From Escherichia phage vB_Eco_mar003J3: 64,000 nucleotides of DNA. The stretch lies in sequence record NC_048203.1; one strand, given 5' to 3'. The notes under the pieces were generated by a model, which was given only the letters and a program-made list of their open reading frames with translations, made no database searches and was not told the origin of the DNA. Shown here piece after piece: positions 961-16,948 of this stretch; the stretch's first letter is position 1, and each line of letters opens with the position of its first letter. A program made the position numbers and the translations under genes.

Positions 961-1035
961 TGGCACACCCACGGAGAATTGAACTCCGATTCTCAGATTG
1001 AAATCCTGATGTCCTAACCATTAGACGATAGGTGC
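961..1035 (-). tRNA. tRNA, anticodon TTC (Glu) by manual fold
   Basis: 75 nt cloverleaf; acceptor GCACCTA/TGGGTGT, D stem GTCT/GGAC, anticodon loop ATTTCAA, T-arm CGGAG-TTCAATT-CTCCG, encoded CCA. Confidence 0.6.
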
Positions 1036-1044
1036 ATTAAATTT

Positions 1045-1126
1045 GGTGGGGGATGGAGGACTCGAACCTCCGCGTGATATACCCGGTCTACAGCCAGGCG
1101 CCGTCGCCACTGAGCCAATCCCCCAT
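1045..1126 (-). tRNA. tRNA-Tyr (anticodon GTA)
   Basis: Acceptor GGGGGAT/ATCCCCC perfect, anticodon stem CCTGG/CCGGG with loop CTGTAGA, extended variable region, T-arm GGAGG-TTCGAGT-CCTCC, CCA. Confidence 0.7.
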
Positions 1127-1248
1127 ATTTGAATGAAAAGTAAGTCGGTTAAACTCAAGGTGGAATATTTCAGGATTTCCTGACTTTACCCCTAAAAGCA
1201 ACTCGCTTAATTACTTCTCATTCAGATATGTTTCCAAATTAGATAAAT

Positions 1249-1278
1249 ATTATATCAAGTTTTAAGGCACTTGAGCAA
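1249..1278 (-). promoter_or_regulatory. sigma70-like promoter (-35 TTGCTC, 18-bp spacer, -10 TATAAT)
   Basis: Read on minus strand; lies upstream of the minus-strand tRNA pair. Confidence 0.4.
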
Positions 1279-1314
1279 GTCAAACTTTAAAGAACTTGCT
1301 CAGTGCTGTATCAG

Positions 1315-1590
1315 TTAATCAAATGAAGGAGTGACTTTCAAAGTGAATGGAAGTTCGAATACCTCTTCACCTTCATCAGTAACAGTGACTACTCGACCCT
1401 CTAGCTTATTCATGCTGATTTCAACATCAGCCGTAGCATCAGGAGCCATACCAGCTTCAACACATTTAGCTTTAATTTCCGGCAGAAGTTCTACATCATA
1501 GAAATAAAGCCATTCAATCTCACCTTCCCAGCCTTCCCAGGATTTACAGATTGCACTTTCAATACCAGTTGTTATAACACGATTTTGCAT
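1315..1590 (-). CDS. hypothetical protein (91 aa)
   Basis: ORF preceded by promoter-like element at 1621-1650. Confidence 0.5.
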   Translation of the reverse strand: MQNRVITTGIESAICKSWEGWEGEIEWLYFYDVELLPEIKAKCVEAGMAPDATADVEISMNKLEGRVVTVTDEGEEVFELPFTLKVTPSFD

Positions 1591-1620
1591 TCGTTAACTC
1601 CTTCATCAATTTATATAACT

Positions 1621-1650
1621 ATTATAACAGAAATCTTAAGTAAAAAGCAA
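1621..1650 (-). promoter_or_regulatory. sigma70-like promoter (-35 TTGCTT, 18-bp spacer, -10 TATAAT)
   Basis: Minus-strand reading of aagcaa ... attata. Confidence 0.45.
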
Positions 1651-1680
1651 GTACATTTTTAAAATTTCTGCTTGGAGGAG

Positions 1681-1953
1681 TTAAACTCCTGATTCTTCAG
1701 CCAGATCAAGCCCAACCAACGTGATTGCCATAATAGCCGCGCCATGTTCCTTCTCTCCTAGCTCTTTAGCTTGAGTGAGAATATTGAGGAATTGCTTTTG
1801 AAAATCTGTAACTTCTTCTGTCATGCCTGCTTCAGCAATAATTCCTTTCAGCATAAAGCGTTGTGCCGTAATTTCAGGATTAGCCATTTGTTTTCTCCAG
1901 TTATTTAGAATGTAAGCCAAACTTAGGATCATAGCGATCATAAGTCGTACCAT
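1681..1953 (-). CDS. hypothetical protein (90 aa)
   Basis: ORF only. Confidence 0.4.
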   Translation of the reverse strand: MVRLMIAMILSLAYILNNWRKQMANPEITAQRFMLKGIIAEAGMTEEVTDFQKQFLNILTQAKELGEKEHGAAIMAITLVGLDLAEESGV

Positions 1954-2038
1954 TAGTTGAAGTCTTGATGCTATGAAAACGACAGTACATAAATTTACGT
2001 AGTGCTTTCTTAATAGCTTTCATTTTATTTCCTTAATT

Positions 2039-2115
2039 TGGTAGGGGTGGTGGGATTCGAACCCACAAAACCTGAATTTTAAGTCCAGTACCTATGCCAA
2101 TTCGATTACACCCCC
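2039..2115 (-). tRNA. tRNA, anticodon TAA (Leu-type) in a short-variable-arm scaffold
   Basis: 77 nt; acceptor GGGGGTG/CACCCCT, discriminator A, CCA, anticodon stem CTGGA/TTCAG with loop CTTAAAA, T-arm GTGGG-TTCGAAT-CCCAC; D stem weak. Confidence 0.55.
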
Positions 2116-2124
2116 ATGTAATCT

Positions 2125-2472
2125 TTAGAGTTCGTAACCCTGAATATATCGAGCAAAACCAGTAATCTCGAACTGAATTGCCCATGCTACTTCCATATGC
2201 TCAATCTTACTAAAATGAGCGTCAGACTGTTCTAGGAAATAACGAGAGATTATAGGGAACTCAATGTCAAAATCTTCCTTATCCATACCATAGAAGAAGT
2301 TTCCAGAAATATTACGAACTTCACGAAAGAAATCCTCAATCTGAAAATCCATCAGAGGATAAGTATATTCCTCTTTGCTATCATCCGTTTGGAAGAAGCG
2401 GAAATGCACAAGGCAAGAGCCAATCAGATTTACTGCTGGAGTAGTGTAAATATCCATGTTAACCTCGATCAA
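2125..2472 (-). CDS. hypothetical protein (115 aa)
   Basis: ORF, acidic. Confidence 0.45.
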   Translation of the reverse strand: MIEVNMDIYTTPAVNLIGSCLVHFRFFQTDDSKEEYTYPLMDFQIEDFFREVRNISGNFFYGMDKEDFDIEFPIISRYFLEQSDAHFSKIEHMEVAWAIQFEITGFARYIQGYEL

Positions 2473-2644
2473 TATCTAGAGAAATTCCAAATTCTGGATT
2501 AATACCAGAACCATTACATGCTGCGCATTCCCACTCTTCAAAACGCATATCGCCAGGTTCAGCATCATTAATAGTACCTGTTCCTTGGCAGTGAGTACAC
2601 ATGCACTCTTCTAGTTCTTGTTTAAGCTCTTGAAACTTAGACAT
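2459..2644 (-). CDS. small zinc-ribbon protein (DnaJ-type CxxCxGxG repeats)
   Basis: 61 aa; CTHCQGTG and CAACNGSG motifs. Confidence 0.5.
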   Translation of the reverse strand: MSKFQELKQELEECMCTHCQGTGTINDAEPGDMRFEEWECAACNGSGINPEFGISLDIDRG

Positions 2645-2661
2645 ATAGTCTCCTAGTTAAT

Positions 2662-2739
2662 TGGTGGCTCCCGGAGGATTCGAACCTACCTACCTTTCGC
2701 TTATGAGGCGACGGCTCATACCAAATGAGCTTGAGAACC
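2662..2739 (-). tRNA. tRNA, anticodon CAT (Met or Ile-lysidine)
   Basis: Acceptor GGTTCTC/GGGAGCC with two G-U pairs, D stem GCTC/GAGC, anticodon loop CTCATAA, TTCGAAT T-loop, CCA. Confidence 0.55.
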
Positions 2740-2744
2740 AAATT

Positions 2745-2833
2745 TGGAGGAAGAAGTGGGAATCGAACCCACAAGGCTATGTTTCAAACCGACAGATTAG
2801 CAATCTGCTGCAATACCGTTATGCTATTCTTCC
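2745..2833 (-). tRNA. tRNA-Ser (anticodon GCT), class II
   Basis: 89 nt; acceptor GGAAGAA/TTCTTCC perfect, anticodon stem GCAGA/TCTGT with loop TTGCTAA, long variable arm, T-arm GTGGG-TTCGATT-CCCAC, CCA. Confidence 0.7.
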
Positions 2834-3343
2834 TTAATTATTTCGGGCATATTCCCCATGAAGTTTCTCTCTCAGTTGAATTAGAGCTTCATTTGCTGCT
2901 TCAGGAGTACTGTGCAGCCCTGCGGAGTATGACTTACCTTTAAACATTATTCTACCCTGCCACTGACCAGATGCTTTGTGGTAGGATACTCCCTTAAATC
3001 CGCTAGTATTCCTAGAAGATTTACTAGCATTATGAGTATTAGTGGTACTATCCGCTGCTCTTAAATTTAAAGGATGTATGTTTAACTTATTGCAGTCTTT
3101 ATGATCAATCATTTCCGGCCTATACCCATAATATAGTATAAATACTATGATATGAGCTAAGTAATCTTGGTGATCAACGTTAACTCTGATATACCCAGAG
3201 CTTTTGTGCAAAGATCCCGCAGGTTTATTGGCAAACTTAGTATTAAATATCTTCTCCTCTCTGGAGTTTCCGGAGAGCGGATTCCACACCAGTACACCAT
3301 CTTCTAAACGGAATCTATAAAGTATAGACTCATAGTCTAGCAT
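2834..3343 (-). CDS. HNH homing endonuclease
   Basis: 169 aa; IDHKDCNKLNIHPLNLRAA HNH core; C-terminal SGFKGVSYHK...W.GRI AP2-like region. Confidence 0.75.
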   Translation of the reverse strand: MLDYESILYRFRLEDGVLVWNPLSGNSREEKIFNTKFANKPAGSLHKSSGYIRVNVDHQDYLAHIIVFILYYGYRPEMIDHKDCNKLNIHPLNLRAADSTTNTHNASKSSRNTSGFKGVSYHKASGQWQGRIMFKGKSYSAGLHSTPEAANEALIQLREKLHGEYARNN

Positions 3344-3376
3344 AAATAGTTCCTAATCTTCCAAATTTATGAATAT

Positions 3377-3405
3377 ATTATACAGAAAATTTCGGCATTA
3401 AGCAA
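3377..3405 (-). promoter_or_regulatory. T5-type early promoter (-35 TTGCTT, 17 bp, -10 TATAAT)
   Basis: Minus-strand reading; part of a roughly 60-bp cassette repeated through the early region. Confidence 0.6.
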
Positions 3406-3413
3406 GTGAAATT

Positions 3414-3710
3414 TTACTGAACATTGCACTGATATACCTGTTTGATACGTGTCACTGACTTCTTAGTTGGGTTGATAGAAGAACCCTGCCACCAACGTGA
3501 CTCTGAGCTAAGAATAGCACCAGGAACAGCCTGCTCTTTTGGCAGAACAATATCAAAACACTGTTCACCCATATTATCTTTAATGTGTGACCAAATATCC
3601 AAAGTAAATCGTTCTAACTTATTACAAACCTGAACTTGACAAAGTTCCTGTTGCGGAGCAGCAAATACAGAAGTAGATACTAGAGTCAGTGCAAGTACAA
3701 TGCGTTTCAT
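3414..3710 (-). CDS. secreted small protein with N-terminal signal peptide
   Basis: 98 aa; MKRIVLALTLVSTSVFA-AP signal-peptidase-I-type leader; several Cys. Confidence 0.55.
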   Translation of the reverse strand: MKRIVLALTLVSTSVFAAPQQELCQVQVCNKLERFTLDIWSHIKDNMGEQCFDIVLPKEQAVPGAILSSESRWWQGSSINPTKKSVTRIKQVYQCNVQ

Positions 3711-3740
3711 GTTTGATTCCTCTCTCGAATTTATAAATAT

Positions 3741-3769
3741 ATTATATAGAAATTTTCTATATTAAGCAA
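3741..3769 (-). promoter_or_regulatory. T5-type early promoter (TTGCTT, 17 bp, TATAAT)
   Basis: Minus-strand reading. Confidence 0.6.
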
Positions 3770-3786
3770 GTGAAAATTTCTGTATA

Positions 3787-3809
3787 ATAGCCCTCGCTTA
3801 GAGGGCTAT
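3787..3809 (-). terminator. hairpin ATAGCCCTC-gctta-GAGGGCTAT just after pnuC stop
   Basis: Perfect 9-bp stem; flanking U-rich run is weak. Confidence 0.4.
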
Positions 3810-3816
3810 AACTACT

Positions 3817-4509
3817 TTATTTGTTAACGCGTACAAAGTATCCTTTATAGGCTCCCATAATAGAGTTACCTAAGAATACTAGCCACATTGCTAGGATTGC
3901 ATAAGATGCACCTGTAGATTGAGTAGTTACAAGCCAAATGTACACAGTACCAATGTTAATAGCAATCCAGATCAGCCACTGCTCGGCATACTGCTTAACC
4001 ATAAGCCACATAGCGATCACACTACCTACCGCAGTAAATGCATCCAACATTGGGAATGGATCAGCCGTAGTAGCTAAGAAACTACCATACCCTAACGTGG
4101 CTACTGCTAGAATCCCTAGAGTCAGCAGAGCTTGGACTTTAGTCAGAATCTTAGTTGGAACATCTGGCAGATTACTTGGCTTATTTTTATGCCATAAGTA
4201 CATTCCATAAAACTGCATAGGAACGTAGTATAGCAGGTTTAGTGCAGCGTTACCATAAAGATCTGCGTTTAAAGCTGTAATACCATAGGTAAGAACACCA
4301 ACTAAGCCCCAAATATAGTTAGAAACACGTCCTTTAGCAACCAAAATAACACAAACTACGTTGGTTATCGCAGTAGCCCAATCTAGAGGTGTACCATTAT
4401 AGTTAGCTAAACTAATGAAGGCAACCGCTATGAACAGCCACAGATATTCCAGAGGTTTCCAGTTTTTAAAGTCATTTACGAGATAGTTAGTCATATTAAA
4501 ACTCTCCAA
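3817..4509 (-). CDS. pnuC: PnuC-family nicotinamide riboside / NMN transporter
   Basis: 230 aa polytopic membrane protein; matches recalled E. coli PnuC in the YGxYxW and PFPxLD...WLxWIxINI regions; 14-nt overlap with upstream nadR-like gene. Confidence 0.85.
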   Translation of the reverse strand: MESFNMTNYLVNDFKNWKPLEYLWLFIAVAFISLANYNGTPLDWATAITNVVCVILVAKGRVSNYIWGLVGVLTYGITALNADLYGNAALNLLYYVPMQFYGMYLWHKNKPSNLPDVPTKILTKVQALLTLGILAVATLGYGSFLATTADPFPMLDAFTAVGSVIAMWLMVKQYAEQWLIWIAINIGTVYIWLVTTQSTGASYAILAMWLVFLGNSIMGAYKGYFVRVNK

Positions 4510-5551
4510 CGTTAAAGTGATGAATCAGCCAGTCTACTGCGTTTACTGCTTCGTCCATACGAACTTTGTAGTCCGGGGAGTCGATGTACACAGTACGCCC
4601 TTCAGGGAACTGATTTGGAAATTCTTTCTTCATCTGCTCGAACAGTTCAGAAGTAATTGAACGATCGGAGTTAATACGTAAACCATCATCTACCCACTTG
4701 ACAGTGGGCGCTAGAACAATTACTAAATCGTAATGTTCTTCTTTTGCAATTGCTGTAACCACAGGGTTCTTACGATGTTCATAAAGTCTGTGGTAGAACT
4801 CAGTAATAAAAGCATTTGTATCCACAAACATGATCTTATTTGCAGTACGTTCTGCCTCAAACTCTAGCTCTTTGTGTCTGAACGCAATTTTACTATAATC
4901 TTCGCTGGTAAGCAGATTTTCGTTACCAACTAGATCAACTTCACAATACGTTCGACCATATTCTTCTACCCACGAAGTGTTGTATAGCTTCGCAAGGTAT
5001 TTTGTTAAAGTAGTCTTTCCTGAGCTTTCAGTCCCAATGATTACAACCCTACGCACGTAATCTTTACGAACTACGCTAGGAAGAAACTCCCAATACTTCA
5101 TAAGATCATTACGAATCATTGTAGCTGAGATTGGAACACGAGTCCGATCAGAATCTACAATATAATGACCAAACTTCGGCAGATATTTCTTATATTCTGC
5201 ATCATAGTCTAGTTCGCTAGAGAAAATGGTGATCTCAGGCAAATGTCCGTAATTTTCATTAAGGATTCTAGCATATTCCGGCCAACCATTCGGATATTCA
5301 GGAATATCATCTTCAATAGTGTACTCTACCGAAATGTGCTCAATATCCGCGTAAGTTTGTTCTAACCAACGAAGTCGATTCTTTAACTGTAATACTTCCT
5401 GATCACGTGTGTTCTGCTTATCCAACCAACGATTATCATGACTAACTACAACAATAACTCGTTCACACATAGTTGCTGCTGTGTTTATTAGGTTAATATG
5501 ACCACGCGTTAATGGTGCGAACTTACCAATTACTAGACCAGTCTTAATCAT
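4496..5551 (-). CDS. nadR: NadR-like bifunctional NMN adenylyltransferase / ribosylnicotinamide kinase, no HTH domain
   Basis: GKFAPLTRGH nucleotidyltransferase motif, then Walker A GTESSGKTT kinase domain; start moved to MIKTG (SD GAGAGGAA) because the ORF-track extension to 5602 contains the promoter. Confidence 0.85.
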   Translation of the reverse strand: MIKTGLVIGKFAPLTRGHINLINTAATMCERVIVVVSHDNRWLDKQNTRDQEVLQLKNRLRWLEQTYADIEHISVEYTIEDDIPEYPNGWPEYARILNENYGHLPEITIFSSELDYDAEYKKYLPKFGHYIVDSDRTRVPISATMIRNDLMKYWEFLPSVVRKDYVRRVVIIGTESSGKTTLTKYLAKLYNTSWVEEYGRTYCEVDLVGNENLLTSEDYSKIAFRHKELEFEAERTANKIMFVDTNAFITEFYHRLYEHRKNPVVTAIAKEEHYDLVIVLAPTVKWVDDGLRINSDRSITSELFEQMKKEFPNQFPEGRTVYIDSPDYKVRMDEAVNAVDWLIHHFNVGEF

Positions 5552-5581
5552 ATTTGATTCCTCTCTCAAATTTATAAATAT

Positions 5582-5610
5582 ATTATACAGAGAATTTAGC
5601 ATTCAAGCAA
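5582..5610 (-). promoter_or_regulatory. T5-type early promoter (TTGCTT, 17 bp, TATAAT) for nadR-pnuC
   Basis: Minus-strand reading. Confidence 0.6.
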
Positions 5611-5769
5611 TCGAATTTTTTAACTTTTTAGTGGAAAAAATCTCAAGGCATTTAGTGGTAGCACGTTGTTGCTACAATAATAGTATATGATTCTAAAGAA
5701 TTAAAGAATTAAATACTAAAGACCTTAGTTGAATAACTTATGGGCTTTTCTTTTGCCTTAAATACAGAA

Positions 5770-5800
5770 AAGCCCACGCTCTCGGAGGAAACGCGGGCTT
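5770..5800 (-). terminator. hairpin terminator after SPFH gene
   Basis: AAGCCC...GGGCTT stem followed on minus strand by UUUCUGUAUUU. Confidence 0.5.
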
Positions 5801-5823
5801 GTTTCGAAGATTACGTGTAACTA

Positions 5824-6768
5824 TTACTTATTACGCATATCCATAATCATCTGGCCATCATAACCAGTACCTACAACAGTCTGAGGAACGCCACCCTGAT
5901 ATTTTTCAGCGCGTTTCATATCAACTTCCAGCTGTTTCCAGCGAATCATCTCTGGAGTGATGGTACGCTGCAGAGCGGTGTTAGCTTCAGCTTCTTTCTT
6001 AGCTGCATACAGTTTAGCATCTGCGTCACGTTCGTTAGCTACTGCCATATTTTCACGAGCAGAACGATCAGCCTCAGCTTGCTTAACTTTCTGCTGTGCT
6101 TCTTGTTCAACACGAGCTAGTTCAGCTTTTGCAGCGTTAACTTGTTCTTCACGAACTTTGGTGTTTTGTACCTGTTCCATGATTACCGGTGGCAGAGTAA
6201 TATCCTGAAGGAATACTTGCTTAACGGTGTAGCCATAAGGACGCGCATACTCTTCTACTTCTTGCTGAATAGCGGTTTGCAGTTGAGCCTGAATCTTAGC
6301 GTCGAACAGATCTTGTGCTTTTGGTACAGACTTACCAAACTCACGAATCGTAGACAGCATCTTCTCTTCAACGTACTTGTTCAGAGCTTGATCCTGAGTA
6401 CCTGCGTTAACACGGTTCATAGGAGCTTTAGCACCATCAAACTGCAACATAACTGTAATGTCAACTGTAGACTTAAACTTATCCTGGCTAGGAACCTGAA
6501 GTTTATCCAGTTTCATAGAAATATCTTTCGTACTAAAAGTATCAAAAGAGGCGAATGGGTTGACAATATGGAACCCCGGCAATACAGGATTAGGACTAAC
6601 TTTACCCAGGAAAGTCTGAGTTTTAACCGTACCATCCTGAACAACTGTATAGGAATTGAGAGCCAGAATAAGAGCGCCAAGACCAACTACAGCACCAACA
6701 CCCCAACGTTTAATAGCACGAATTACTTTTTGATCGGAAGTCAGTTCTTTAGTGTTTTTAGTAAACAT
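5824..6768 (-). CDS. SPFH/band-7 (prohibitin/HflC-like) membrane protein
   Basis: 314 aa; N-terminal TM helix, band-7-like core, long charged coiled-coil C-terminus. Confidence 0.65.
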   Translation of the reverse strand: MFTKNTKELTSDQKVIRAIKRWGVGAVVGLGALILALNSYTVVQDGTVKTQTFLGKVSPNPVLPGFHIVNPFASFDTFSTKDISMKLDKLQVPSQDKFKSTVDITVMLQFDGAKAPMNRVNAGTQDQALNKYVEEKMLSTIREFGKSVPKAQDLFDAKIQAQLQTAIQQEVEEYARPYGYTVKQVFLQDITLPPVIMEQVQNTKVREEQVNAAKAELARVEQEAQQKVKQAEADRSARENMAVANERDADAKLYAAKKEAEANTALQRTITPEMIRWKQLEVDMKRAEKYQGGVPQTVVGTGYDGQMIMDMRNK

Positions 6769-6779
6769 ATATTTCCTTA

Positions 6780-6980
6780 TTATTTAGAAGAGTTAGCTAC
6801 TACAGTTACTTTAGTTGCAGAAATAAACAGGCTAGCATCCACAGCAAATTCAGGAGCTTTGATATCTCCGTTATGAAATATGACTATACCGGAGACTACT
6901 TCAAATGCTAGCGCTGTAACATCGGTGGTATTTACTTGTGAATGTTCACCTACTACTTTTACTATATATCGTGTTTTCAC
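6780..6980 (-). CDS. hypothetical protein (66 aa)
   Basis: ORF only. Confidence 0.4.
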   Translation of the reverse strand: MKTRYIVKVVGEHSQVNTTDVTALAFEVVSGIVIFHNGDIKAPEFAVDASLFISATKVTVVANSSK

Positions 6981-7006
6981 TTTATTTTCCTAGCAGTTAA
7001 TAAAAT

Positions 7007-7081
7007 TGGCCGAGGTGACAGGATTCGAACCTGCATAAAGGAATTTAGAAGACTCCTGCCTATCCCTTAGACTACACCCCG
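7007..7081 (-). tRNA. tRNA-Arg (anticodon TCT)
   Basis: 75 nt; acceptor CGGGGTG/CACCTCG, D stem GTCT/AGGC, anticodon stem GGAGT/ATTCC with loop CTTCTAA, T-arm GCAGG-TTCGAAT-CCTGT, CCA. Confidence 0.7.
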
Positions 7082-11058: not shown

Positions 11059-11760
11059 TCAAATTTTGATTTTTTCGATCATGACGGCTACACAATAACT
11101 TTCAACTAAAGCATCGAATGCTGGATCATGCTTCACAGGATAGATTCCATAACGAATGGTGTCCATCTTTTCCATTTTAGCTTTTGCCCAGCTAGTACCT
11201 TCGGCTTCTAGATCTTTATAGCTATAACCAGCTTGCATCCACTGATTACGGAAAGATCGAACGTTACCTAAGTTCCAGAATTTCCACGGAACTATTTCTT
11301 CATGGGTTCCGGCATGGAACGTATTTGCAGAGTAGATTGTCATATCAAACTCTGGGCCATTGCCGTAATACAGAGCATTATCTCCTAGAGACAATTCCAT
11401 AATGTTCTGAGCCATAGAGAAGGCAGCATAATTAGAGCCTACGTCATTAGTGCAGTGATGCTTACCATCACGGAAGGCAATCAGTTTAGGATTACGACCA
11501 TTTAGAGCCTCCATAATATGGAGCGCAGATGGACTGTTTTTAGCTTGATCCATCCAGAATGCAATAGTAGAGGCAGTTACCTTAGCACCCGCATTAAGCT
11601 GATCTTGAACGTCTAGAGTAACGAATACCAGATCAGGATCTTTATCAATTCCGTGCATCGCTACAAAAGCGAAAGAAGGCATTGCAATATGAGTAGTACC
11701 GCAATTTCCTGGAGTACCTAGAGATTCAATGTCTAGCATACCAAAGGGCTTGAATTTCAT
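11059..11760 (-). CDS. DEDDh-type 3'-5' exonuclease (DnaQ-like fold)
   Basis: 233 aa; LDIESLG (motif I D-x-E) and HDPAFDA (H-x4-D). Confidence 0.55.
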   Translation of the reverse strand: MKFKPFGMLDIESLGTPGNCGTTHIAMPSFAFVAMHGIDKDPDLVFVTLDVQDQLNAGAKVTASTIAFWMDQAKNSPSALHIMEALNGRNPKLIAFRDGKHHCTNDVGSNYAAFSMAQNIMELSLGDNALYYGNGPEFDMTIYSANTFHAGTHEEIVPWKFWNLGNVRSFRNQWMQAGYSYKDLEAEGTSWAKAKMEKMDTIRYGIYPVKHDPAFDALVESYCVAVMIEKIKI

Positions 11761-12044: not shown

Positions 12045-12260
12045 TTACTTGCCCAGCAGTTTAAGGATATTTTCCTTAATAGTTTGAGCAGATTTTTCAC
12101 TCTTATTGGTTTCAGCCAGTTTCAGAGCGAGTTCTTCCTGCTGTTTCTGAATATCAGCAGCAGTTTTCTGGTCAGCTTCAATACGAGCTTGAAGTTCATC
12201 AGTAATAGTGGTAAAGGAAGCAACGATTTCAGTAACGGAACGTGGTTTCTTAGAGAACAT
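12045..12260 (-). CDS. small coiled-coil protein (71 aa)
   Basis: ORF only. Confidence 0.45.
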   Translation of the reverse strand: MFSKKPRSVTEIVASFTTITDELQARIEADQKTAADIQKQQEELALKLAETNKSEKSAQTIKENILKLLGK

Positions 12261-12321: not shown

Positions 12322-12837
12322 TTACTTCGCTTTACGCTTACGAGTAGGTTTAGCGGATTTACGATCAGAAGCACCAGTAAACTTAATACCGATACCGTAG
12401 CACAGAGCGCGAACGTTGTCACGGCTATACTCTACACCGAAAATATTCGGTTTAACGGAGCCAAACTGTCCACGGGATTCACGCATTACGTCAGCCATTG
12501 GCTTACGCTTCTGATTGACTGCTTTTTCGTAGTCTTTCAGAGCCATACCGTTGCGGGCGAACATCTCAGCACCGCCGTTAAAGCTCAGAGTTACAGGTAC
12601 AGACTTATGACCTTCACCCTTGATGAACACAACCTGCTTAGCAGTTGCGCGAGTAGAGTTCTTGGCCTTCGGCTTCTGGCGAACCGGAGCCGCAGACTTC
12701 AGGGCAGTCTGAGCCTGAGCATCAGTAGGATGCTTACGCAGATGACGTTCCAGACGAGCCTTACGATTGGCTTCGGTCTGAGCGAAAGTTTTAACTGCCG
12801 GAGCTGCCTGAGTTTTTGCGTTTTTATGCTTAGCCAT
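12322..12837 (-). CDS. basic protein, possible nucleic-acid binding (171 aa)
   Basis: K/R-rich termini. Confidence 0.45.
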   Translation of the reverse strand: MAKHKNAKTQAAPAVKTFAQTEANRKARLERHLRKHPTDAQAQTALKSAAPVRQKPKAKNSTRATAKQVVFIKGEGHKSVPVTLSFNGGAEMFARNGMALKDYEKAVNQKRKPMADVMRESRGQFGSVKPNIFGVEYSRDNVRALCYGIGIKFTGASDRKSAKPTRKRKAK

Positions 12838-13275: not shown

Positions 13276-13764
13276 TTACATCTCAGCAAGTTCTTGCTCA
13301 GTAATTACAGTATTGCATAGAGCATCAACTTCTTCATTACCACGAATACCTGAGTGACCTTTAACCTTAACAAAGGTTGGATTGGTATCATGGAAGTTAA
13401 TATACTGTTGAGTTAGTTTAAATGCTTCTTGCCAGAGTTCTAGATTAAGAGGAGTTTCACCATCTCCCTTCTTCCAGCCTTTCTTCTGCCAAGACCACAT
13501 CCAGCTTTCCATACCATTTTTGCAGTAAGCAGAATCAGTGTAGATAATTACTGGACGATTATCTTTCTTAGTAGACCAACGAAGAACTTCTACAATTGCA
13601 GTAAGTTCCATTTCGTTATTAGTAGTTTTAGGGCTGAATCCAGATTTAGAGCCAATACGATCATCATTATCATTATAGACAACGAATCCCCACGCACCTA
13701 AACCAGGATTGCCTTTACATGCACCATCTGTATATATGTGGAAAACCGACATTATTTGCTCCAA
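13276..13764 (-). CDS. rnhA: ribonuclease H
   Basis: 162 aa; YTDGACKGNPG start, TNNEMELTAI, YTDS, HSGIRGNEEVD. Confidence 0.85.
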   Translation of the reverse strand: MEQIMSVFHIYTDGACKGNPGLGAWGFVVYNDNDDRIGSKSGFSPKTTNNEMELTAIVEVLRWSTKKDNRPVIIYTDSAYCKNGMESWMWSWQKKGWKKGDGETPLNLELWQEAFKLTQQYINFHDTNPTFVKVKGHSGIRGNEEVDALCNTVITEQELAEM

Positions 13765-14021
13765 TCAATTTCAAGCCAAAAACCTTCACGCTGTTCATAC
13801 TTAGCTTCTACAACATAACCTAGTTTGCTAAATTTTTGCATGACGCTATTTCTAGCGTTTTCTGAGTATTCAGTTAATCCCTGGATGTGACAGTTAAATT
13901 CTTTATCTTTAATAGCTTTGTCAATCTCTACGGCAATAAGTGATTCTAGGTCAATTACTTCCTTTTTAATGCTAGCAATAGTATTTTGTTTTGCTTCTAA
14001 AGCAGATAAAAGAATAGACAT
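13752..14021 (-). CDS. hypothetical protein (89 aa)
   Basis: ORF only. Confidence 0.45.
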   Translation of the reverse strand: MSILLSALEAKQNTIASIKKEVIDLESLIAVEIDKAIKDKEFNCHIQGLTEYSENARNSVMQKFSKLGYVVEAKYEQREGFWLEIDWSK

Positions 14022-14023
14022 AT

Positions 14024-14602
14024 TTATTCTCCAATTACTAAAACATCATGTTGAGAAGATACACCACACATATAATCTGCACAATGCGTAAAAGCCAGAT
14101 CAATGATTTCAAATATATCATCTACATCTAAATCTGTGGCTCGACAATCCGCAATAGCTAAACCTGTACGAATACTGGAAAGTACATCTTCTCCTCCACA
14201 GCCTACACCGGCATATTCAACTTCTAGAATAGAAGCATTAGATTGGAAAATAAAGATTCTTCCTTTGTAGAGCATAATAAATTGTCCCAGATTAGGTTCA
14301 GCATATTTTTCATTTTTCTTTTCGCCAAAATCTTTCTGGTTAAACATATCACGTAGTTTAGGTACTATTTCCGTATATAAATATTTATCATCGGAAATAT
14401 CTGCTAAACGTGGTGGTACAGTAAAGCTATGCTCTAGTAATTGTCCCATGTAGAAGGAACTAGTGTATCCGAAGTACAAATCATCAGAGATTTTGAATAC
14501 TTTCGGATTTTTAACCAGCAGTTTCGTATAGCCATTAGAACCCATACGATCACCAGCTAAGTATACTTTATCTTTATATTTAAATGCTACTATGGCTGTC
14601 AT
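14024..14602 (-). CDS. HslV-like / proteasome beta-type Ntn-hydrolase peptidase
   Basis: 192 aa; MTAIVAFKYKDKVYLAGDRMGSNGY resembles the HslV N-terminus as recalled; glycine-rich GVGCGG; Thr at position 2. Confidence 0.55.
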   Translation of the reverse strand: MTAIVAFKYKDKVYLAGDRMGSNGYTKLLVKNPKVFKISDDLYFGYTSSFYMGQLLEHSFTVPPRLADISDDKYLYTEIVPKLRDMFNQKDFGEKKNEKYAEPNLGQFIMLYKGRIFIFQSNASILEVEYAGVGCGGEDVLSSIRTGLAIADCRATDLDVDDIFEIIDLAFTHCADYMCGVSSQHDVLVIGE

Positions 14603-14632
14603 TATTAAATCCTTCTGTCAAATTAGAAGTAT

Positions 14633-14661
14633 ATTATATTTGAATTTCACTCAGTAAGCAA
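14633..14661 (-). promoter_or_regulatory. T5-type early promoter (TTGCTT, 17 bp, TATAAT)
   Basis: Minus-strand reading. Confidence 0.6.
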
Positions 14662-14677
14662 ATGAAATTTAAATATA

Positions 14678-14695
14678 ATAGCCCCGAAGGGCTAT
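14678..14695 (-). terminator. ATAGCCC-cgaa-GGGCTAT hairpin
   Basis: Directly after membrane-protein stop. Confidence 0.45.
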
Positions 14696-14700
14696 TTGAA

Positions 14701-15054
14701 TTAGATTATAATCAAGATTATTAGGGCGTATGTCAGATAATGCAGTAACTGATCAAATCCTAAAGCTATCCAAAACTTAGCATCGCTTATAGCGTATTTA
14801 CAGCGTTGTGCTTTCCAATAATCTATAATAAAGTGTAGAATTAATTCCATAATAGCTAAAGCTATAGACATTCCTGGTGATGTGAATAGGATTAGAATTG
14901 CAAATGTTAATCCAGCATGTACTAGCGAATGGGTTAATAATGGAAGTTTCCACCCTATTTTATGCGTCTTTCTTAGCATATATGGTGTTTGGAGTGGATA
15001 ATCGGCCATAAAATGTTTTAGAAAGAATATGACAAATAATAGTATAATTAACAT
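14701..15054 (-). CDS. small integral membrane protein
   Basis: 117 aa; 3-4 hydrophobic helices. Confidence 0.5.
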   Translation of the reverse strand: MLIILLFVIFFLKHFMADYPLQTPYMLRKTHKIGWKLPLLTHSLVHAGLTFAILILFTSPGMSIALAIMELILHFIIDYWKAQRCKYAISDAKFWIALGFDQLLHYLTYALIILIII

Positions 15055-15912: not shown

Positions 15913-16439
15913 TAATAAGTCACCAGTTCTTGTACAAAAGATAAACTTTTGTCTGCATTATGCCCTACTGCATAGTCCATCCTAGTTGCTGTTGAATTAG
16001 TCATAGTAATATGATGGTGAAGATGTACATCAGCAGATAATGGTGTAACTGAATTAATAGTAGATACATACGCCATATCTAGATGATTATTGACGTACAT
16101 TTCAAGAAGCAGAGTTGCTCCTCCTAATACTACAGTTACTTCTTCCTTGAGGAAATCAGGCAGACTGTATCCAATATTACTTATGCGTGTGGCTGATCCT
16201 ACAGAGTTAGGTAGTGGTCTATTTGCATAAATAAATAGGTCAGAATCTCCTAGTATTCTTTTTTGCAGAGTCTCAGGGAAGGCTAACCAAGTCCCTGCTC
16301 CTACAATAATATTATCAGGTGCTAGAGAATCCAAAGTAGCATAGAAGATATCTAGTTCTTCTTTGAAAGAACCCCAGGGGAGCTTACCATTAAGGCCGAA
16401 CTCCCCATTCGGCCCAGTTGCATAGATTGCTGCTATCAT
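15912..16439 (-). CDS. dihydrofolate reductase
   Basis: 175 aa; [27 protein letters not shown]-terminus; start overlaps thyA stop. Confidence 0.85.
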
Positions 16440-16948
16440 TTATTAAGTTCCTCTAGTGACGGAATAGTACCTTGAAATTCTTCTAATCGTGCAAAATCCC
16501 CTTGTTTTTGTACTCTAAGGTTATTGGCTTTTTTAATTGCTAAAGAGAGATCTTCATAGTTAAATACTCCCCCATATACACCTTGAATACGAACATACCA
16601 TTTTTGTCTCTGCTTATTCCAACTAATCCCAGAATAGCCTGATTTATTTGGTATTTTTCTGTTTTGCTTATTCTGCTTACTAGTAGATTTCCTAAGATTA
16701 TCCCACTTATTGTTAAGACCATCCCTATCCTTATGGTCTACTTCCTCCGGCATGTAACCCTCCATGTATAGAAAGGCTAACCTATGGGCATACTCTTTGG
16801 TACTATCTATACCTATAACTAAGTACCCGTCTCTCTCATAGCCTGCCACGCTTCCTGCCTTCTGGTTAGCTATGTCGATTAATCTAATAAATTCTCCCGT
16901 TTCCGGGAGATATTTAAATAGTTCCTTTAATCTTTGTTGTGTTACCAT
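16436..16948 (-). CDS. HNH homing endonuclease
   Basis: 170 aa; EEVDHKDRDGLNNKWDNLR; paralog of 39601-40131. Confidence 0.75.
   Translation of the reverse strand: MVTQQRLKELFKYLPETGEFIRLIDIANQKAGSVAGYERDGYLVIGIDSTKEYAHRLAFLYMEGYMPEEVDHKDRDGLNNKWDNLRKSTSKQNKQNRKIPNKSGYSGISWNKQRQKWYVRIQGVYGGVFNYEDLSLAIKKANNLRVQKQGDFARLEEFQGTIPSLEELNK

What the first reader, a model, noticed from the sequence alone, without database searches (positions are those of the whole stretch)
14024..14602. Orphan HslV-like / proteasome-type Ntn-hydrolase
The N-terminus MTAIVAFKYKDKVYLAGDRMGSNGY and a glycine-rich GVGCGG segment resemble the HslV fold as recalled, with Thr directly after the initiator Met as in Ntn-hydrolases. 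No HslU-like ATPase is nearby. A phage-borne proteasome-like peptidase could process phage proteins or degrade host factors.
Basis: partly seen in the sequence, partly recalled or inferred. Interest (0 to 1): 0.5.

Follow-up and report, generated by a model that had tools for sequence, protein, structure and literature searches.

The report
Phage proteasome-like threonine peptidase gene
A T5-like Salmonella/E. coli phage carries an optional gene for a small proteasome-type threonine peptidase that has no partner ATPase; the gene and its family are already annotated and described, but nobody has tested what it does.

Summary
The ORF is real: window 14024..14602, minus strand, 192 aa, starting MTAIVAF. 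The window is a T5-like phage of the genus Epseptimavirus. The protein is 100% identical to the phage EPS7 protein ACB97546.1, which public records already name 'peptidase HslV family', 'proteasome subunit-like protein' or 'threonine-type endopeptidase'.

Thr directly after Met1, Asp18, Lys34 and Gly45 are invariant in 59 diverse homologues. Cys135 sits where HslV has the Ser of its GSGG motif. dN/dS against close relatives is 0.03-0.06.

It is not HslV proper. No HslV equivalog model matches, identity to HslV is 16-19%, and the loop after helix 2 is long. No AAA+ unfoldase is annotated within 20 kb.

Its bacterial relatives are mainly Streptomyces, alphaproteobacteria and Polyangiaceae. That distribution fits the 'AAH' group of Fuchs et al. 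2021, which is also found in phages.

The gene is accessory: about 124 of about 443 matching T5-like records carry it. No neighbouring gene is conserved with it.

The parts
14024..14602 (-). Gene for a 192-aa proteasome-like N-terminal-threonine peptidase. Key residues in precursor numbering: T2, D18, K34, G45, G134-C135-G136.
14610..14614 (-). Shine-Dalgarno-like AAGGA, 7 nt upstream of the ATG
   Evidence: Read directly from the sequence.
14633..14661 (-). Candidate sigma-70 promoter, TTGCTT-17 nt-TATAAT. The -10 hexamer is perfect; the -35 hexamer is weak (3 of 6).
   Evidence: Read from the sequence. The consensus scan did not list it. This is an inference only.
14678..14695 (-). 7-bp stem with a UUCG loop directly after the stop codon of the upstream DUF3307 gene; terminator-like, so the peptidase gene may start its own transcript
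   Evidence: Fold: the whole intergenic region gives -26 kcal/mol, z -3.69. The terminator scan did not call it.
14701..15054 (-). Upstream neighbour: 117-aa DUF3307 membrane protein. It is gained or lost together with the peptidase gene relative to phage 1-29, but it is absent next to the peptidase in phage KKP_3711.
   Evidence: Pfam DUF3307 46.4 bits. PHROG 2470. Comparisons.
13752..14021 (-). Downstream 89-aa ORF of unknown function. Its ATG lies 2 nt after the peptidase stop codon and its end overlaps the RNase H start. It is also annotated at the same position, at the same length, in phage 1-29, which lacks the peptidase, so it is not a dedicated partner.

Best explanation
The gene encodes a stand-alone member of the proteasome (MEROPS T1) superfamily, carried by a T5-like phage among its nucleotide-metabolism and replication genes. 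The proposed mechanism is as follows. Host methionine aminopeptidase removes Met1 and frees the alpha-amino group of Thr. Thr1 then acts as the nucleophile, with Asp17 and Lys33 (D18 and K34 in precursor numbering) and a backbone oxyanion hole at the invariant Gly45. Cys135 takes the place of the Ser in the G-S-G motif. By analogy with its nearest structural relatives, BPH and HslV, the subunits probably assemble into stacked rings with the active sites inside. Because no dedicated ATPase is present, the protein would cleave peptides, unfolded chains or a narrow set of specific proteins without ATP, with the long charged loop after helix 2 gating or selecting substrates. It is an optional fitness gene rather than part of the core lytic programme. 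Shown here: family membership, fold, conservation of the catalytic residues, purifying selection, accessory status, and absence of a linked ATPase. Inferred only: Met removal, oligomer formation, peptidase activity, expression timing and substrates.
For: - Catalytic residues: HMMER aligns T2, D18 and K34 with Thr1, Asp17 and Lys33 of T. maritima HslV and M. tuberculosis PrcB. It aligns G45 with the HslV glycine that counts as Gly45 in the printed chain, and GCG with the HslV GSG.
- Conservation: M1, T2, D18, K34, G45, G134 and G136 are invariant in 59 sequences that are 26-74% identical to the query.
- Selection: dN/dS is 0.063 and 0.032.
- No partner ATPase: no unfoldase is annotated within +-20 kb of the gene in a near-identical phage. 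No neighbour is conserved across 80 bacterial and 80 viral loci. Relatives are abundant in Streptomyces, a phylum in which the table in PMC8665760 lists no HslV.
- Precedent: BPH has no partner unfoldase, loses its start Met when made in E. coli, and reacts with epoxomicin at Thr1 (PMC5777263).
- Accessory status: about 124 records carry a copy at >=90% identity, out of about 443 T5-like records that match the region. The gene is absent from Tequintavirus VEc33 and Epseptimavirus 1-29 at the same site.
Against: - No activity, oligomeric state or substrate has been measured for this protein or its family. I found no functional paper.
- BPH, the closest solved structure, showed no activity on the model substrates tried (PMC5777263). 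An intact active site therefore does not guarantee general peptidase activity.
- The Ser-to-Cys change at the position of the HslV GSG serine has an unknown effect.
- Only a monomer could be modelled, so ring assembly rests on analogy.
- Early expression is inferred from gene position only.
Confidence: 0.6

Rival explanations
1. The phage protein uses the host's HslU. It forms HslV-like hexameric rings that dock onto E. coli or Salmonella HslU, or it co-assembles with host HslV. This would create an ATP-dependent protease with altered specificity, or redirect or poison host HslUV.
For: HslV is among the top structural matches. The best sequence-profile match among solved structures is T. maritima HslV, at 4.9e-6. 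Enterobacterial hosts encode HslU (established knowledge). UniRef names the cluster 'ATP-dependent protease', but that is a name and not a test.
Against: The family is common in Streptomyces, whereas the table in PMC8665760 lists no HslV for Actinobacteria, so the family as a whole cannot depend on HslU. Identity to HslV is only 16-19%, and no HslV equivalog model matches. The loop after helix 2 is about 18 residues, whereas HslV has a short linker there and the unfoldase-free BPH has a long loop (PMC5777263). No docking prediction could be made.
Confidence: 0.12
2. It is not a degradative protease. It is a specific transpeptidase or ligase in the manner of connectase, or an amidohydrolase acting on a non-protein substrate, using the same Thr1 chemistry.
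Confidence: 0.1
3. It takes part in virion head maturation or in processing of structural proteins.
For: In 12 of 80 viral loci the homologue lies near ORFs that, judged by eye, look like an HK97-type prohead protease; smaller sets of loci have portal-like and major-capsid-like ORFs. These three ORF families were not checked with a profile search.
Against: In this phage the gene lies among thymidylate synthase, DHFR, ribonucleotide reductase and RNase H genes, not among structural genes. It is absent from most T5-like phages, which build the same kind of virion. The loci with head genes appear to carry their own prohead protease already. Bacterial homologues have no phage-head context.
Confidence: 0.05
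4. The gene is a selectively neutral passenger with no function in this phage.
For: It is accessory and sits in a hypervariable slot between rnh and thy.
Against: dN/dS is 0.03-0.06 with dS up to 0.67. All catalytic residues are invariant. The protein is conserved at >=99% identity in 107 records.
Confidence: 0.03

Closest known systems
[quoted passage not shown]
   Same: The taxonomic spread matches. Relatives at 30-40% identity are found mainly in Streptomyces, Azospirillum, Mesorhizobium, Devosia, Polyangiaceae and Paraburkholderia, and in many phages. The subunit is compact, about 180-190 aa, with helices H1-H4 and no fifth helix, no propeptide and no linked ATPase.
   Different: The assignment rests on distribution and architecture only. 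The AAH reference sequence (WP_035979212) and the authors' cluster map could not be compared here. The T5-like copies form a tight clade of their own with a GCG motif.
BPH (Betaproteobacteria proteasome homologue; PDB 5ovs, 5ovu; PMC5777263)
   Different: Sequence identity is 13-21% and the profile E-value is only 4e-3. The loop here is of mixed charge (KDFGEKKNEKYAEPNLGQ) rather than strongly acidic. Host range and taxonomy differ. Tetradecamer formation was not tested.
HslV (ClpQ), the peptidase of the HslUV protease
   Different: No hslU gene is present. No HslV equivalog model matches. Identity is 16-19%. The loop after helix 2 is long rather than a short linker. Cys replaces the motif Ser.
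PPH (proteasome homologue of phages and their hosts), Fuchs et al. 2021
   Same: A phage-borne group I proteasome homologue with Thr1, Asp17 and Lys33.
   Different: PPH is described as about 140 residues and lacking helix H2. This protein has 192 residues and a confident H2 at residues 71-89. The second proteasome-like gene next to this family's member in Aeromonas and Vibrio phages has a C-terminal extension, which resembles the paper's description of the PPH-related RPC group, and shows no BLAST similarity to this protein.

Membership tests
Proteasome-like superfamily (Pfam PF00227, MEROPS T1) | Score above the curated Pfam gathering threshold | tested here: met
   38.5 bits against a cut-off of 22.4; residues 2-189 match profile positions 5-188 of 189.
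Proteasome-like superfamily (Pfam PF00227, MEROPS T1) | Proteasome-type Ntn-hydrolase fold with two flanking helix pairs | tested here: met
Proteasome-like superfamily (Pfam PF00227, MEROPS T1) | N-terminal Thr (or Ser) nucleophile, plus Asp17 and Lys33 | tested here: met
   T2, D18 and K34 are invariant in 59 of 59 sequences. They align with Thr1, Asp17 and Lys33 of HslV and PrcB.
Proteasome-like superfamily (Pfam PF00227, MEROPS T1) | Oxyanion-hole glycine (Gly47 in the proteasome; by my count Gly45 of the HslV chain) | tested here: met
   G45 is invariant. It aligns with the glycine that counts as residue 45 in the T. maritima HslV chain printed.
Proteasome-like superfamily (Pfam PF00227, MEROPS T1) | Ser in the G-S-G motif that supports Thr1 (role recalled from memory) | tested here: not met
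   The residue is Cys135 here, present in >=90% of close homologues. Wider family members listed have Cys, Ser or Ala at this position. This is a substitution within the motif, not its loss.
Proteasome-like superfamily (Pfam PF00227, MEROPS T1) | Peptidase activity and ring assembly | not testable with these tools
   These need biochemistry, or multimer modelling, which the structure tool does not offer.
HslV proper (ClpQ) | Match to the curated HslV equivalog model | tested here: not met
   The NCBIfam scan returned no HslV model. The only proteasome-related hits were 20S_bact_beta at 14.7 bits (cut-off 191.9) and arc_protsome_B at 12.6 bits.
HslV proper (ClpQ) | Encoded with, or working with, the AAA+ partner HslU | tested here: not met
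   No AAA+ unfoldase is annotated within +-20 kb in a near-identical phage or among the neighbours in the window. Use of host HslU was not tested.
HslV proper (ClpQ) | Short linker between helix H2 and the next strand | tested here: not met
   The model has an unstructured stretch of about 18 residues, 90-107, between H2 (71-89) and the next strand (108-112). The HslV linker is described as short in PMC5777263.
AAH (Fuchs et al. 2021) | Distribution centred on Actinobacteria and Alphaproteobacteria, and also in phages | tested here: met
   391 confirmed loci among species-representative genomes. Of the 80 kept, Streptomyces, Azospirillum, Mesorhizobium, Devosia, Polyangiaceae and Paraburkholderia predominate. 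367 loci were found in viral contigs.
AAH (Fuchs et al. 2021) | Clusters with the AAH reference WP_035979212 in the authors' map | not testable with these tools
PPH (Fuchs et al. 2021) | About 140 residues, with helix H2 missing | tested here: not met
   192 aa, with H2 predicted at residues 71-89 and pLDDT above 90 there. PPH is described.
BPH | Long, strongly acidic pore loop | tested here: inconclusive
   The loop is long but of mixed charge (4 Lys, 4 Asp/Glu).
BPH | Significant sequence-level membership | tested here: not met
   The family profile matches C. metallidurans BPH at only E 4.4e-3, 19.9 bits.

The most novel reading that the evidence does not exclude
The phage peptidase is a host-takeover or counter-defence effector. 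It would act as an ATP-independent protease that selectively destroys a host protein, such as an immunity or stress factor, or it would hijack host HslU. That would explain why it is an optional cassette in a hypervariable early-region slot. It would also explain why the family is spread across unrelated phages near other auxiliary genes (PhoH-like, Sir2-like).
Probability: 0.12. Interest if true: 0.65.

Novelty: already known. Interest (0 to 1): 0.28.

Why it matters
Proteasome-like peptidases encoded by phages have been known from sequence analysis since 2021, but none has a known substrate or phenotype. This copy sits in a well-studied, genetically tractable phage group (T5-like phages of E. 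coli K-12 and Salmonella). Natural isolates with and without the gene exist, so it is a convenient entry point for finding out what partner-less proteasome homologues do. As a discovery, though, it adds nothing new: the gene is already annotated with this identity.

Tried and rejected
- PADLOC defence models: no match.
- NCBIfam: no equivalog reached threshold, and no HslV model was listed at all.
- Single-sequence search of solved structures: only marginal matches to P. falciparum beta-7 (E 0.013). The family profile was needed to see HslV, PrcB and BPH.
- Search for a conserved partner gene: all-against-all clustering of ORFs in 80 bacterial loci and 80 viral loci found none. The largest non-target clusters were shadow ORFs overlapping the gene on the opposite strand.
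- The two immediate neighbours as dedicated partners: rejected. An 89-aa ORF of the same length is annotated at the same position in phage 1-29, which lacks the peptidase. DUF3307 is missing next to the peptidase in KKP_3711.
- Homology between the small ORFs that fill the rnh-thy slot in other T5-like phages and the ORFs here: none found.
- AFDB fold search: the library was unavailable.
- Literature searches for functional work on phage HslV-like proteins, and for the HslV residues that contact HslU, returned nothing usable. I therefore make no argument from specific HslU-contact residues.
- Multimer structure prediction was not possible with the tool.

Full report
**Observation.** The ORF exists as described, but on the minus strand: window 14024..14602, 192 aa, beginning MTAIVAFKYKDKVYLAGDRMGSNGY and containing GVGCGG at residues 132-137. 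There is no upstream in-frame start. An AAGGA ribosome-binding sequence lies 7 nt before the ATG.

**What the window is.** A 5-kb stretch around the gene matches 443 phage records, almost all T5-like phages of Salmonella and E. coli (family Demerecviridae). The best matches, at 99% identity, belong to the genus Epseptimavirus. The protein is 100% identical to proteins of EPS7, rokbiter, Seafire, IrmaTschudi and many others. Some records call it 'hypothetical protein'. Others already call it 'peptidase HslV family', 'HslV family peptidase', 'proteasome subunit-like protein' or 'threonine-type endopeptidase'. The exact sequence is GenBank ACB97546.1; the sources name it 'peptidase HslV family [Escherichia phage Eps7]', and UniRef labels its cluster 'ATP-dependent protease'.

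**Family and fold.**
- Pfam Proteasome (PF00227) matches end to end at 38.5 bits, above the 22.4-bit gathering score.
- PHROG 1040 'peptidase HslV family' matches at 1.9e-21.
- No NCBIfam equivalog (bacterial 20S beta, archaeal beta) comes near its threshold, and no HslV model appears at all. No PADLOC defence model matches.
- An AlphaFold2 model built on 18 homologues is confident (pLDDT 89.7, pTM 0.87). It shows the expected order of strands and four helices: H1 50-59, H2 71-89, H3 137-153, H4 160-177.
- Foldseek gives the same picture, with the highest TM-score for C. metallidurans BPH (0.70).

**Active site.** A profile of the family was aligned by HMMER to solved HslV and mycobacterial PrcB sequences. 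T2 aligns with Thr1, D18 with Asp17, K34 with Lys33, G45 with the glycine that counts as residue 45 in the printed HslV chain, and G-C-G (134-136) with the HslV G-S-G.
- In 59 family members that are 26-74% identical to the query, M1, T2, D18, K34, F36, G45, G106, G134 and G136 are invariant.
- The motif GYTSSF(R/Y)MGQ(L/I)L is a family signature.
- The one departure is Cys135 at the position of the HslV motif serine. It is Cys in at least 90% of close relatives and Cys, Ser or Ala among the wider members listed.
- Thr as the second residue is a good substrate for methionine aminopeptidase (established knowledge). BPH, which also begins Met-Thr, loses its Met when made in E. coli (PMC5777263).

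**The gene is under constraint.** Against two diverged T5-like copies, dN/dS is 0.063 (dS 0.105) and 0.032 (dS 0.67).

**It is not HslV itself.**
- Sequence relationships to solved proteins are weak and roughly equidistant: HslV 4.9e-6, PrcB 1e-3, BPH 4e-3. Identity in the structural alignments is 13-21%.
- The stretch after H2 (residues 90-107, KDFGEKKNEKYAEPNLGQ) is about 18 residues long. In HslV this is a short linker; in the unfoldase-free BPH it is long (PMC5777263; PMC8665760).
- No AAA+ unfoldase is annotated within 20 kb on either side in the near-identical phage rokbiter. The neighbours in the window are an exonuclease, RNase H, a DUF3307 membrane protein, thymidylate synthase, DHFR, an HNH endonuclease and NrdB.

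**Wider family.** An exhaustive profile search finds 6704 cluster representatives at E<=1e-3 and 836 at E<=1e-30. Most are 175-195 aa and start at Met-Thr; a minority have long C-terminal extensions.
- In species-representative bacterial genomes there are 391 confirmed loci. Those kept are dominated by Streptomyces, Azospirillum, Mesorhizobium, Devosia, Polyangiaceae and Paraburkholderia, at 30-40% identity.
- This distribution, the compact four-helix subunit and the frequent occurrence in phages fit the AAH group of Fuchs, Alva and Lupas 2021. It does not fit their PPH group, which is about 140 aa and lacks H2 (PMC8665760).
- I could not compare with their reference sequences, so the AAH label is an inference.
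- The table in that paper lists no HslV for Actinobacteria, so the family cannot in general depend on HslU.

**Context.** Clustering all ORFs in 80 bacterial and 80 viral loci found no neighbour conserved with the gene.
- Recurrent but minority contexts in the viral loci are ORFs that look like an HK97-type prohead protease (12 of 80 loci; judged by eye, as were the less frequent portal-like and capsid-like ORFs), PhoH-like ORFs (8 of 80), and a second, unrelated proteasome-like gene directly downstream in Aeromonas- and Vibrio-type phages (5 of 80).
- Within T5-like phages the interval between rnh and thy is a variable slot. Tequintavirus VEc33 has one 93-aa ORF there. Epseptimavirus 1-29 has the 89-aa ORF plus an unrelated 84-aa ORF. 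This window has the 89-aa ORF, the peptidase and DUF3307. The more distant Demerecviridae phage KKP_3711 has a 63-aa ORF followed by the peptidase at 56% identity.
- About 124 of roughly 443 matching records carry the gene at 90% identity or more. The gene is therefore accessory.

**Local anatomy.** A 7-bp hairpin with a UUCG loop follows the DUF3307 stop codon (14678..14695). A TTGCTT-17-TATAAT element (14633..14661) precedes the gene; the consensus scan did not list either one. The peptidase stop codon is 2 nt from the ATG of the 89-aa ORF, which in turn overlaps the RNase H start. The three genes are therefore probably co-transcribed. This is an inference.

**Mechanism and rivals.**
- Best-supported reading (confidence 0.6): a partner-less Thr1 peptidase that probably forms rings and works like BPH, carried as an optional gene among the phage's nucleotide-metabolism and replication genes.
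- What is shown: family, fold, conserved catalytic residues, purifying selection, accessory status, and lack of a linked ATPase.
- What is inferred: Met removal, assembly, activity and substrates.
- Rivals: recruitment of host HslU (0.12), a non-degradative ligase or amidase (0.10), a role in head maturation (0.05), and a neutral passenger (0.03).
- No experimental paper on any phage member was found.
- BPH itself showed no activity on the model substrates tried. This is the main caution.

**Verdict.** The feature is an already annotated member of a described family, so novelty is 'already known' and interest is low to moderate. Its residual value is as a tractable system for learning what phage-borne, ATPase-less proteasome homologues do.

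Noticed in passing
window 16436..16948 (-): A 170-aa HNH_3 endonuclease ORF (Pfam 47.6 bits) lies between the DHFR gene and nrdB. Most close relatives lack it at this site: their megablast matches stop at window position 16440, and in rokbiter frd abuts nrdB. It looks like a free-standing homing endonuclease insertion.
   Followed up: partly
window 13752..15054, compared with L001, L002 and L004: The interval between rnh and thy is a hypervariable slot in T5-like phages. Different phages fill it with small ORFs that show no detectable similarity to one another.
   Followed up: yes
L005 3070..3954; L007 3145..3489; L094 5570..6442: Aeromonas and Vibrio phages carry two adjacent proteasome-like genes. 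One belongs to this family. The other is a paralogue of about 290 aa with an acidic C-terminal extension; it has no BLAST similarity to the first and only a sub-threshold Pfam Proteasome hit (17.9 bits). This hints at a two-subunit assembly.
   Followed up: partly
L006 (phage 121Q), L005, L007, L168 (rokbiter): PhoH-like genes, and in two of the four phages also Sir2-like genes, lie within a few kb of the proteasome-like gene in unrelated phages. In 121Q a ClpP-like protease gene is also adjacent. This may only reflect shared placement among auxiliary genes.
   Followed up: no
window 14595..14710 (-): The intergenic region folds much better than shuffled controls (-26 kcal/mol, z -3.69). It contains a UUCG-capped hairpin after the DUF3307 stop codon and a second, longer hairpin that overlaps the weak -35 element of the candidate promoter and ends just before its -10 hexamer.
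   Followed up: partly
window 12045..12260 (-) and 11059..11760 (-): Public names look unreliable here. The 71-aa ORF is called 'tail length tape-measure protein' in several records. The 233-aa ORF is called 'metallopeptidase' in some records but matches exonuclease families (PHROG 255; Pfam Rv2179c-like 3'-5' exoribonuclease).
   Followed up: partly
window 961..7081 (-): Six tRNA genes (Glu, Tyr, Leu, Met, Ser, Arg) form the end of the large tRNA cluster typical of T5-like phages.
   Followed up: no
window 12322..12837 (-): A 171-aa, very basic, Lys-rich protein matches DUF7022 end to end (265 bits). It is conserved in T5-like phages and has no known function.
   Followed up: no
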